From Eledone cirrhosa (taxonomy: Eukaryota): a stretch of 64,000 nt of DNA. The position numbers and the translations under genes are program-made. A model generated the notes under the pieces. It was not told where the DNA came from. It made no database searches and saw only the letters and a list, made by a program, of their open reading frames with translations. Positions 3,646 through 51,333 of the stretch are shown here, piece by piece (the first letter of the stretch is position 1; each line of letters begins with the position of its first letter). The DNA is taken from the NCBI GenBank assembly GCA_964016885.1, contig OZ024750.1:1054001-1118000 (forward strand), written 5' to 3'.

Positions 3646-4247
3646 TCTGTTTTTTCGGCAATTGAGCCAGAGTTGAACCTGCCTTTGTCTTCTTCTTTGT
3701 TTCAGCTAGTCTCAAGTTGCCATCAATTTGTTGATTTACGCCAAGTTACAAAACACGTGTGTTGATTTCCGTTCAATTACCTCAACAATACATTCAGTAT
3801 TCACTACAAGTATCTCTCGAAAGAACTTTACTTGAAGAACATATACATAACATTACTCAACCTTGTTATAATTGAAAATCATTATTTTTCTCTATGAACT
3901 GTTGTATTATTTAAACCTGTACTTTAGTGAACTTCTAAAATTGAAAACACGCAGTTTAAGCAATCTGAACCATCACAGTAAATCAAACCGGTGGAGGTCC
4001 TACTGGTCGTATCTCGAAAATAAATATCTATTATATATAATTTGTATAAATAATTTATATATATAATATATATATAATTTATATATATAATTTATATATA
4101 TAATTTATATATATAATTTATATATATAATTTGTATATAATTTATATATAATTTATATATAATTTATATATAATTTATATATATAATTTATATATATAAT
4201 TTATATATATAATTTATATATATAATTTATATATAATTTATATATAT

Positions 4248-4423
4248 AAATATAAGTATGTATACGTACATACATATATGTATACATACGTACAGTAGTA
4301 TGTATATATATATATACATACTACTGTACGTCTGTATATATATATGTATGTACGTATACATACTTATATTTAAGTCACAGCCGTACTAAGAGTGAGAAAT
4401 GAAATTTCGTTTCATTTTTTCCG
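4248..4423. repeat. Fold-back palindrome (4248-4371) plus unique tail; one arm and the tail recur at about 11990-12103
   Basis: The arm aaatataagtatgtatacgtac...tacagtagtatg is mirrored. The tail cagccgtactaagagtg.gaaatgaaatttcgtttcattttttccgt is present at both loci. Confidence 0.75.
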
Positions 4424-27669: not shown

Positions 27670-27708
27670 TCTTGTCTGATGACCCTGTGATAAACTGGCG
27701 AAACTCCA
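27670..27708 (+). ncRNA. Hammerhead-bearing repeat family H, 5' part (truncated at (TA)n)
   Basis: TCTTGT-CTGATGA-CCCTGTGATAAACTGGC-GAAA-CTCCA, then (TA)n. Confidence 0.65.
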
Positions 27709-32662: not shown

Positions 32663-32733
32663 CTTGATGACCCTGTGATAAACAGGCGAAACTCCAGAGT
32701 AACAAGACTCACTATTTAGCTTTAATAAAATGA

Positions 32734-35578: not shown

Positions 35579-35716
35579 TCACAGGGTCATCAGATCAGAT
35601 TGTAAGAACTACTCCAGAGTAACAAGACTCCCTATTTAGCTTTAATAAAATGAATATTACAACTCTACATCAGTATTGAGTACTCTTTTCTCTCAGCCGT
35701 CAACCACATACGAATA
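35579..35716. repeat. Family H remnant with an inverted 5' piece
   Basis: tcacagggtcatcaga (reverse complement of tctgatgaccctgtga) followed by forward actccagagtaacaagactc...aataaaatgaatattacaactctac. Confidence 0.7.
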
Positions 35717-44093: not shown

Positions 44094-44210
44094 ATAGGAA
44101 AAAGTATGACCCCGACGGCAGAGCTCAAGCCGTTTCGACGGCTATTTCTAGTCCAGAAATAGCCGTCGAAACGGCTTGAGCTCTGCCGTCGGGGTCATAC
44201 TTTTTCCTAT
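44094..44210. repeat. Perfect palindrome with 56-bp arms and a 5-nt loop
   Basis: 44094-44149 is the exact reverse complement of 44155-44210; related sequence occurs at 36634-36686 and 39216-39291. Confidence 0.95.
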
Positions 44211-46594: not shown

Positions 46595-46973
<379 letters not shown>

Positions 46974-47291: not shown

Positions 47292-47661
47292 ATATACAAT
47301 ATATTAACAAATGGAAACTATATTTATAAAACCATATTTATTTTATTATACATATTTCAAGGGCCACCAAGGCAAATTATGGTGCGCTTTCATCATATAA
47401 AATACAATACAGATTAGTTTTATAAATAAATATTGACATACCCTGAAAAAAACCTTAACGATTGGAGCTTAACTATCCAGGAAGCTCCAACCGTTAAGCT
47501 TTTTTTCAGGGTATGTCAATATTTTATTTATAAAACTAATCTGTATTGTATTTTATATGATGAAAGCGCACCATAATTTGCCTTGGTGGCCCTTGAAATA
47601 TGTATAATAAAATAAATATGGTTTTATAAATATAGTTTCCATTTGTTAATATATTGTATAT
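47292..47661. repeat. Long palindrome (about 179-bp arms, 11-nt loop) with a hammerhead-like fold in each arm
   Basis: Arms are 47292-47470 and 47482-47661. 47549-47614 reads TATTTTAT-ATGATGA-AAG..CACCA..TGGTG..CTT-GAAA-TA-tg-TA-TA-ATAAAATA. Confidence 0.9.
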
Positions 47662-47850: not shown

Positions 47851-47882
47851 CCTATTCATATATCATTAAGGCTACATAGTAT

Positions 47883-48058
47883 GTCTTGTTAATCTCCAGT
47901 TTCGCCTCTCTATAACTGGGATAAACAGACATGATAAACAGGCGAAACTCCAGCGTAACAAGACTCACTATTTAGCCTTAATAAAAAAAAATTGAATACC
48001 TAAACTCTACATCTGTATTGAGTACACATCTTTCCAGCCGTTAACTACTTACGGATAC
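47883..48058. repeat. Family H head-to-head remnant
   Basis: A minus-strand piece (gtcttgttaatctccagtttcgcct) is followed by forward tgataaacaggcgaaactccagcgtaacaagactc...aataaa. Confidence 0.7.
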
Positions 48059-48059
48059 T

Positions 48060-48106
<47 letters not shown>

Positions 48107-48108
<2 letters not shown>

Positions 48109-48301
48109 GTTATGTAATAAACAACATAAGATAATTATTTCATTTACCAGTGGTTTCTTGAAAGCAAACAAAATTTGCTTTCAGCCATCAGAATGAAAAA
48201 ATCCTGTTTTTTCATTCTGATGACTGAAAACAAATTTGGTTTGCTTTCAAGAAACCACTGGTAAATGAAATAATTATCTTATGTTGTTTATTACATAACT
48301 A
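48107..48301. repeat. Palindrome (95-bp arms, 5-nt loop) carrying a hammerhead on each strand
   Basis: 48107-48201 and 48207-48301 are reverse complements with about 3 mismatches. Confidence 0.95.
48210..48270 (+). ncRNA. Type I hammerhead ribozyme with intact core
   Basis: TTTCATT-CTGATGA-C-TGAAA-a-CAAA-tttgg-TTTG-c-TTTCA-A-GAAA-CCA-c-TGG-TA-AATGAAA. Stem I is 7 bp, the triplet is GUA, and the predicted cut is after 48263. Confidence 0.8.
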
Positions 48302-48366: not shown

Positions 48367-48434
<68 letters not shown>

Positions 48435-48583
48435 GGGCAGTGGAACAAGGGGACAGGGACAAGGAGCCATGGCCACACCAATAATTATATTTTTCTCTCC
48501 AAACTACCAAAAAACACATCTATTTGTTTATGTGTTACAATTTATGTACAAGTTATGTAGAGTTAAATAGAAAAGATAGATCT

Positions 48584-48758
48584 AGAGAGGGGAGAGTGTG
48601 TGATTAATTGTTATAGAGAGGGGAGAGTGTGTGATTAATTGTTATAGAGAGGGGAGAGTGTGTGGTTAATTGTTATAGAGAGGGGAGAGTGTGTGGTTAA
48701 TTGTTATAGAGAGGGGAGAGTGTGTGGTTAATTGTTATAGAGAGGGGAGAGTGTGTGG
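48584..48758. repeat. 31-bp minisatellite, about 5.6 units, abutting a SINE head
   Basis: agagaggggagagtgtgtg(a/g)ttaattgttat repeated. Confidence 0.93.
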
Positions 48759-48947
48759 TGGATTAGCAGTATCGGTAGAGGGTCGGACGCCATGCTTTCC
48801 AGCATAGTTACGTCCCTTTACGATCTGAGTTCAAATCCCGCCGAGGATGACTTTGCCTTTCAACCTTACGGGGTCGATAAAATAAAGTACCAGTAATGCA
48901 CTGGGTAATTGCTGGCCTTGTGCCTAAAGTAGAAACAATTATTATTA
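48756..48947 (+). mobile_element. SINE family A, full length (short variant)
   Basis: tggtggattagcagtatcggtagagggtcggac...gagttcaaatcccgccgagg...gtcgataaaataaagtaccag...gtagaaacaattattatt. Confidence 0.92.
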
Positions 48948-51133: not shown

Positions 51134-51333
51134 NNNNNNNNNNNNNNNNNNNNNNNNNNNNNNNNNNNNNNNNNNNNNNNNNNNNNNNNNNNNNNNNNNN
51201 NNNNNNNNNNNNNNNNNNNNNNNNNNNNNNNNNNNNNNNNNNNNNNNNNNNNNNNNNNNNNNNNNNNNNNNNNNNNNNNNNNNNNNNNNNNNNNNNNNNN
51301 NNNNNNNNNNNNNNNNNNNNNNNNNNNNNNNNN
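51134..51333. other. Assembly gap (200 N)
   Basis: Run of N followed by an AT microsatellite. Confidence 1.

What the first reader, a model, noticed from the sequence alone, without database searches (positions are those of the whole stretch)
48107..48301. Double-sided ribozyme palindrome: a hammerhead on each strand
The 95-bp arms surround a 5-nt loop. The plus-strand arm has an intact CUGAUGA/GAAA core, a 7-bp stem I and a GUA site, but an imperfect stem II. The minus-strand arm has a perfect 10-bp stem II (TGAAAGCAAA/TTTGCTTTCA) but a CUGAUGG core. The consensus of the two arms is a complete ribozyme. Arm mismatches argue that the palindrome is real and has aged, rather than being a read chimera. 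Any transcript could switch between the ribozyme fold and a 95-bp hairpin that would silence it and be an ADAR/Dicer substrate (inference). The 10.1-11.1 pair is C-A rather than the canonical G-C.
Basis: partly seen in the sequence, partly recalled or inferred. Interest (0 to 1): 0.75.

Follow-up and report, generated by a model that had tools for sequence, protein, structure and literature searches.

The report
Back-to-back Penelope retroelement ends
This mirror-image stretch is two short ends of a common ribozyme-carrying jumping gene placed back to back, likely during a single insertion; the layout is already described for this class and recurs well over a hundred times in the same genome, and the hairpin is predicted to lock both ribozymes off rather than act as a switch.

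Summary
The palindrome and both hammerhead motifs are real, but this is not a single-locus device. Each arm is the terminal repeat (pLTR) of a dispersed Penelope-like retroelement (PLE). One ribozyme pattern matches 1,322 places, and 154 other loci carry head-to-head ribozyme pairs with junctions of 30 nt or less. Long copies link the repeat to a 710-aa ORF with a telomerase-like RT, a GIY-YIG-like C-terminus and the Hydra-clade motifs. The unit runs on to about 48366: the right arm carries a 65-nt tail, the left does not. In 34 of 35 scorable pairs exactly one arm is tailed, and both arms share subfamily letters. The 'loop' is element sequence kept by one arm. Inverted copies, one-sided tails, (TA)n targets, opposite-strand hammerheads and the mismatch before GAAA are all in print. 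The hairpin is predicted to be 72-79 kcal/mol more stable than the ribozyme fold, so switching is unlikely. Cleavage and expression are untested. The scan found this kind before in other genomes.

The parts
48107..48206 (-). 5'-truncated pLTR copy with the short (tail-less) 3' end; 48202-48206 is five more bases of element sequence (CAGGA on the minus strand)
48138..48198 (-). Type I hammerhead motif with A9 changed to G (CTGATGG, 48191-48185), perfect 10-bp stem II; likely inactive
   Evidence: C at 48185 is nearly absent from other copies in public contigs; inactivity inferred from the conserved core
48207..48301 (+). 5'-truncated pLTR copy, common part
   Evidence: with its tail 95.6% and 96.9% identical to pLTRs of ORF-bearing copies L051 and L036
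48210..48270 (+). Type I hammerhead motif, intact core, one mismatch in stem II, short palindromic stem III (dimer type), predicted cut after 48263
   Evidence: layout matches Hydra-clade rows of File S2 of PMC8557442
48302..48366 (+). 65-nt tail, present on this arm only; in full-length copies it runs on into the leader and ORF
48060..48106 (.). (CA)n(TA)n microsatellite, left target flank
48372..48429 (.). (TA)n microsatellite, right target flank

Best explanation
The palindrome is a miniature head-to-head pair of terminal repeats of a hammerhead-bearing, Hydra-type Penelope-like retroelement sitting in a (TA)n tract, likely made in one insertion event when the element's reverse transcriptase primed from both cut ends of the target. 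Shown: repeat family, link to an RT plus GIY-YIG-like ORF, (TA)n flanks, one tailed and one tail-less arm, same-subfamily arms, variable junctions. Inferred: the two arms are two short cDNAs started at the element's two start sites on uncleaved RNA from one source copy and joined at their far ends; the three mismatches arose later; any read-through RNA would fold into the 95-bp hairpin, so the ribozymes are passengers with no role at this locus.
For: Dispersed family: 46 matches,322 pattern hits against 0 control. 154 head-to-head pairs with junction <=30 nt, 0 control, against 12 short-end tail-to-tail pairs, of which 3 of the 6 fetched are visibly nested insertions. pLTR-tail-leader-ORF-UTR-pLTR order in L051 and L036 and intact 709-714-aa ORFs in a sister subfamily. 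Model pLDDT 89.7, nine best PDB matches are telomerase RTs; C-terminal domain matches I-TevI Z 9.7 (rmsd 2.3, 89 aligned), T4 EndoII 7.5, UvrC 6.0. Tail on exactly one arm in 34 of 35 scorable pairs, none with two short ends (p about 2e-9). Arms agree at subfamily sites in 24 of 25, 21 of 22, 22 of 22, 22 of 23 pairs against about 50-57% expected. Either arm can reach further 5' (short 14, tailed 8, tie 2 of 24), and long units join arms of very unequal length. 40 of 41 tailed and 36 of 43 short ends abut TA/CA repeats. In print: inverted 5'-truncated copy and one-sided tail, dual hammerheads on opposite strands, cutting and extension of both strands from two RT start sites with uncleaved RNA as main substrate.
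Against: No experiment on this family. Single-cDNA fold-back followed by trimming at the short end predicts much of the same pattern, and several junctions are perfect palindromes centred on natural inverted motifs (L148, L149, L140). Exceptions to the one-tail rule exist: L112 and L010 have two tails. The tail is 65 nt, longer than the 30-40 bp in print. The ORFs next to the window's own pLTR subtype (L051, L036) are broken; intact ORFs belong to a sister subtype whose pLTR is 85.5% identical. Pfam and PDB sequence searches did not name the ORF, and Foldseek alone gave no hit at E<=0.001 for the C-terminal domain. No target-site duplication can be read inside (TA)n. No read or contig spans this locus.
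Confidence: 0.9

Rival explanations
1. Same element, but the mirror arm is made by self-priming: one cDNA folds back on itself and is copied towards the target, and the short end arises by endonuclease trimming (model of PMC3846280 and the 'EN-mediated resolution' wording of PMC8557442).
For: Arms share subfamily letters; some junctions are perfect palindromes or stem-I fold-backs; the model is proposed in print.
Against: No fixed polarity of the longer arm; many junctions hold extra or rearranged letters; arms of long units differ by hundreds of bases to over 1 kb at the junction; a purified PLE protein extends both target strands from two start sites that match the tail ends.
Confidence: 0.3
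2. A selected, locus-specific RNA switch that toggles between hammerhead and hairpin.
For: One intact core on the plus arm; a 95-bp hairpin is a plausible dsRNA substrate by general knowledge.
Against: Hairpin -130.2 against -58.0 kcal/mol with the ribozyme enforced (plus), -137.9 against -59.4 (minus); the isolated plus arm pairs as a hammerhead with about 1% probability. Each arm has taken a damaging-looking private change. 154 similar units exist. In either direction the antisense arm is transcribed before the ribozyme (sequence).
Confidence: 0.03
3. A non-autonomous palindromic element (MITE-like) that moves as one unit.
For: Many short units of similar size.
Against: Junctions differ from locus to locus and arm lengths range from under 100 bp to several kb; recurrent junctions such as CCTGG/CCAGG are explained by a short natural palindrome in the element.
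Confidence: 0.04
4. Assembly or read fold-back artefact.
For: No public contig or read spans the locus; the window holds a 200-base gap elsewhere.
Against: Three mismatches between arms; the flanks are not mirrored; the asymmetry follows the element's two natural ends; opposite-strand joints of this family occur in independent raw DNA reads (16 reads from 3 starts at 48206).
Confidence: 0.02

Closest known systems
Hydra-clade EN+ Penelope-like elements (Craig et al. 2021, PMC8557442; seen: search listing, passages, section 11, passages and part 2 of the supplement), nearest by eye Hydra-1_Obim
   Same: Single ORF with RWK, DKT, CxCX5C, CxxC and CxH motifs and no CCHH; C-terminal GIY-YIG-like domain; (TA)n targets; sense hammerhead with one-base loop III (acca-a-tggt in Hydra-1_oBim, acca-c-tggt here); Penelope-13_HM is listed with an inverted 5' copy and a hammerhead on both strands.
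   Different: Unit length about 4.3-4.6 kb with a microsatellite-rich 3' UTR against under 3 kb as a rule; clear pLTR tandems, whereas Hydra-1_Obim is listed as 'no pLTR'; 65-nt tail; 10-bp stem II. No tree was built and no identity to the published sequences was computed.
Inverted-pLTR insertions of EN+ PLEs (Arkhipova et al. 2013, PMC3846280, passages; PMC8557442 Fig. 2 legend)
   Same: Head-to-head inverted 5'-truncated copy, tail at one end only, palindromic junctions.
   Different: Here both copies are so short that only pLTR remains; no target-site duplication can be read in (TA)n.
Minimal PLE hammerheads (Cervera and de la Pena 2014, PMC4209133; seen: parts 1-2 of 4 of the text)
   Same: Long helix II, extra base after A9, palindromic helix III needing a dimer, dual motifs 100-700 bp apart on opposite strands.
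   Different: That paper reports a highly conserved G10.1-C11.1 pair; this family has T/A, C/A, A/A or G/T there, as do many Hydra-clade rows. Stem I is 7 bp rather than 4-5.
Poseidon of the green anole in vitro (Frangieh et al. 2024, PMC11167929; seen: parts 1-2 of 4 of the text)
   Same: Two RT start sites that define the tail, AT-rich targets, both strands cut and extended, uncleaved RNA as template.
   Different: Other clade; its hammerhead overlaps the ORF start, whereas here the ORF begins about 220 nt past the cleavage site; that study did not show how inverted units form.

Membership tests
EN+ Penelope-like element | Telomerase-related reverse transcriptase in a single ORF | tested here: met
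   710-aa ORF, YRDD at 346; model pLDDT 89.7; nine best Foldseek rows are TERT, best E 7e-9. Sequence searches gave no name.
EN+ Penelope-like element | C-terminal GIY-YIG endonuclease | tested here: met
   VVY...YVG core at 574-596; VIA-align Z 9.7 to I-TevI (rmsd 2.3, 89 aligned), 7.5 T4 EndoII, 6.0 UvrC; Foldseek alone not significant.
EN+ Penelope-like element | pLTRs in partial tandem and inverted arrangements | tested here: met
   L051, L036, L094-L102; window arm 96-97% identical to L051 and L036 pLTRs.
EN+ Penelope-like element | [quoted passage not shown] | tested here: met
   34 of 35 scorable pairs; 65 nt rather than 30-40 bp.
EN+ Penelope-like element | Retained spliceosomal intron | tested here: inconclusive
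   A GT...AG candidate lies between the cleavage site and the ORF start; no RNA data covered it.
Hydra clade | RWK, DKT, CxCX5C linker, CxxC and CxH, no CCHH | tested here: met
   RWK 37, DKT 114, CSCRKPDEC 555, CSLC 658, CPH 689; no cysteines between VVY and YVG.
Hydra clade | Insertion into (TA)n | tested here: met
   76 of 84 ends abut TA/CA repeats.
Hydra clade | RT phylogeny groups with Hydra elements | not tested
   Published sequences were only compared by eye; no tree.
Type I hammerhead ribozyme | Conserved core CUGANGA, GAAA, UH with three helices | tested here: met
   Plus arm complete; a sister subfamily keeps the core with a different stem II. Minus arm has A9 changed, so not met there.
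Type I hammerhead ribozyme | G10.1-C11.1 closing pair | tested here: not met
   C faces A here; T/A 64, C/A 43, A/A 16, G/T 11, A/T 2, C/T 2 of 138 copies; also unmet in many published Hydra-clade motifs.
Type I hammerhead ribozyme | Rfam covariance-model match | tested here: inconclusive
   No hammerhead family among 39 matches at E<=10.
Type I hammerhead ribozyme | Self-cleavage | not testable with these tools
   No RNA reads; junction positions near the predicted cut are only mildly enriched.

The most novel reading that the evidence does not exclude
Every inverted insertion of this family is built by double priming: one dimeric RT-endonuclease complex cuts both strands of a (TA)n tract and starts one cDNA at the tail-end site and the other at the short-end site of RNA from the same source copy, so the one-tail rule is a direct genomic record of the unsolved second-strand step of Penelope-like elements, testable with the intact 710-aa ORFs in this genome.
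Probability: 0.5. Interest if true: 0.45.

Novelty: new member of a known kind. Interest (0 to 1): 0.2.

Why it matters
As a locus it matters little: it is one of hundreds of stumps of a common retroelement. As a class, the stumps give counts on an open point named in print (how PLEs form tandem and inverted repeats and tails): one tail per unit, arms from one source subtype, no fixed longer arm. The genome also holds many intact ORFs of a Hydra-type family, a clade for which my three literature searches listed no biochemical study, so the mechanism can be tested directly.

Tried and rejected
Rfam scans found only miRNA-type hairpin noise. Pfam and PDB sequence searches did not name the ORF. 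Idea that an extra G at junctions records the RNA cap: 97 of the first 100 of 1,262 hits had G, but 20 fetched loci showed that G is templated in other subfamilies; rejected. Idea (lead from an earlier scan note) that junctions mark the ribozyme cut: by hand count of the 54 rows, 16 fall within -2..+1 of the cut but 11 fall in a 3-base AT-rich stretch downstream, stem I offers microhomology at the same place and the gap limit biases the counts; inconclusive. Low substitution counts in the core were not used as evidence of selection, because the loci were picked with core-containing patterns. Public runs: no RNA holder listed; no piece spans the locus; four possible RNA runs laid nothing on a young copy; none of this bears on expression. 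17 longer window ORFs gave no Pfam family above cut-off, so host-gene context is unknown. One search was a mistyped pattern and was not used. One of the first 50 listed pairs (the one held as L008) was left out of the 49 scored; L072/L073 and L119/L120 look like duplicated loci. The bioRxiv preprint 10.64898/2026.07.22.740005 was seen only as listing and two passages; its supplements were not seen.

Full report
Observation. The palindrome is at the stated coordinates: 95-bp arms with three mismatches around TCCTG. The plus arm has stem I (48210-48216/48264-48270), CTGATGA, a 10-position stem II with one mismatch, GAAA, a 3-bp stem III and GTA at 48261-48263; the minus arm has CTGATGG and a perfect stem II. 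Both sides are TA-rich microsatellite. Rfam has no hammerhead hit among 39 matches at E<=10, so the ribozyme call rests on motif and comparison.

The arm is a repeat. A search of the window's 3.0-Gb genome gave 46 matches, 42 of them near full length at 92-100%. An exact pattern for part of the family matched 1,322 places, the reversed control none. In other copies the sequence runs on upstream (...AATAAATACACCAGGA), and the window's 'loop' is the reverse complement of that CAGGA. Copies end in one of two places: directly after TAACTA, or about 65 nt further on. The window's right arm has the long end (to about 48366), the left arm the short end.

The repeat is a pLTR. L051 reads pLTR, tail, leader, ORF, microsatellite-rich UTR, pLTR; L036 has in addition an inverted copy at its 5' side. 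The window's arm with tail is 95.6% and 96.9% identical to these pLTRs. Their ORFs are broken, but a sister subtype (pLTR 85.5% identical) has intact ORFs of 709-714 aa from the first Met. A model of one (pLDDT 89.7) finds telomerase RTs as its nine best PDB rows; its C-terminal domain matches I-TevI, T4 EndoII and UvrC (Z 9.7, 7.5, 6.0), though Foldseek alone was not significant and Pfam and PDB sequence searches named nothing. The protein has RWK, DKT, CxCX5C, CxxC, CxH and no CCHH, the published marks of the Hydra clade, which inserts into (TA)n.

The palindrome is one of many. A pattern for two intact cores head to head within 30 nt gave 154 loci, control 0; the window's own pair is not among them because of its CTGATGG. 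Short-end tail-to-tail pairs number 12, and 3 of the 6 fetched are visibly insertions into the TA run of an older copy. I scored 49 of the first 50 listed pairs: 34 have one tailed and one short arm, 1 has two tails, none has two short ends, and 14 have an arm cut by later change (34 of 35, p about 2e-9; one of the 35 looks like a duplicate locus). Arms agree at four subtype sites in 24 of 25, 21 of 22, 22 of 22 and 22 of 23 pairs against 49-57% expected, and are about twice as close to each other as to other copies (2.8 against 5.9 differences). Either arm can reach further 5' (short 14, tailed 8, tie 2 of 24 by a crude measure). Longer units show the same head-to-head plan with arms up to several kb and unequal ends. 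76 of 84 ends abut TA or CA repeats. L010 is a second unit with two tails.

Mechanism. Shown: family, ORF, targets, end rule, common source, variable junctions. From print: PLE insertions often carry an inverted 5'-truncated copy and a tail at one end; a purified anole PLE protein cuts and extends both target strands, starts at two sites that delimit the tail, and uses mainly uncleaved RNA. Inferred: both target ends were primed, one at each start site, on RNA from one source; both cDNAs ran through the ribozyme, stopped just past it and were joined. The rival, fold-back of one cDNA with trimming, is not excluded; perfect palindromic junctions fit it, while unfixed polarity and untidy junctions fit two cDNAs. 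I put 0.9 on the element-level explanation and about 0.5 on double priming specifically.

The ribozymes. Dual hammerheads on opposite strands were reported in 2014 as truncated PLEs, and a Hydra-clade consensus is listed with one on each strand. The base pair facing GAAA varies in this family (T/A 64, C/A 43, A/A 16, G/T 11 of 138) and is mismatched in many published Hydra rows. A second subfamily keeps the core with a wholly different stem II, which suggests the ribozyme matters to the element. Stem III is of the dimer type: its 9-mer does not fold alone but pairs with itself at -8.2 kcal/mol; single motifs of this type did not cleave in vitro. At this locus the minus core has lost A9 and the plus stem II has a mismatch, both letters rare in other copies. 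The isolated plus arm is predicted to take the hammerhead fold about 1% of the time, and the full RNA prefers the hairpin by 72 (plus) or 79 (minus) kcal/mol. A switch is therefore unlikely; a dsRNA substrate is possible if the locus is transcribed, which I could not test.

Verdict. Real, explained, a new member of a known kind. Earlier scan notes from other genomes reach the same reading; they are leads, not support. Interest 0.2; the residual value is the end rule and the intact ORFs as a handle on how PLE inversions form.

Noticed in passing
window 47865-47913 (-) and 47934-47982 (+): A second, older head-to-head pair (81.6% alike) of another hammerhead-type repeat 120 bp left of the finding; other copies carry CTGATGACCCTG before it.
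   Followed up: partly
window 27676-27707 (+), also 32665-32730 and 35611-35650: Whole motif of that second hammerhead-type family followed by (TA)n, and two further pieces.
   Followed up: partly
window 44094-44210: Perfect 56-bp-arm palindrome of a third repeat family with the same logic: one arm ends in (TA)n, the other runs on into a tail; junctions vary among L097, L116, L117, L043, L044. It holds a GAAAC...GTC hammerhead-like 3' half.
   Followed up: partly
window 46595-46938, 47428-47524, 4247-4372: Three more long palindromes, two centred on TA runs; not classified.
   Followed up: no
L092-L102: A young sister subtype with intact ORFs carries a CTGAGGA ribozyme in the pLTR and a second, diverged CTGAAGA motif about 1.3-1.8 kb upstream in the 3' UTR, on the same strand; the two might supply a dimer partner in cis.
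   Followed up: no
L051 1063-1265: A GT...AG intron candidate starts at the predicted ribozyme cut (TG/GTAAAT) and ends 20 nt before the ORF start (TTTTCAG); no RNA evidence.
   Followed up: partly
L033 1557-2942; L048 3196-3675; L050: Pieces of further, more distant Penelope-like ORFs in the same genome.
   Followed up: no
window 48576-48761: 31-bp tandem repeat next to a repeat fragment that looks SINE-like (label recalled).
   Followed up: no
window 51134-51333: 200-base assembly gap.
   Followed up: no
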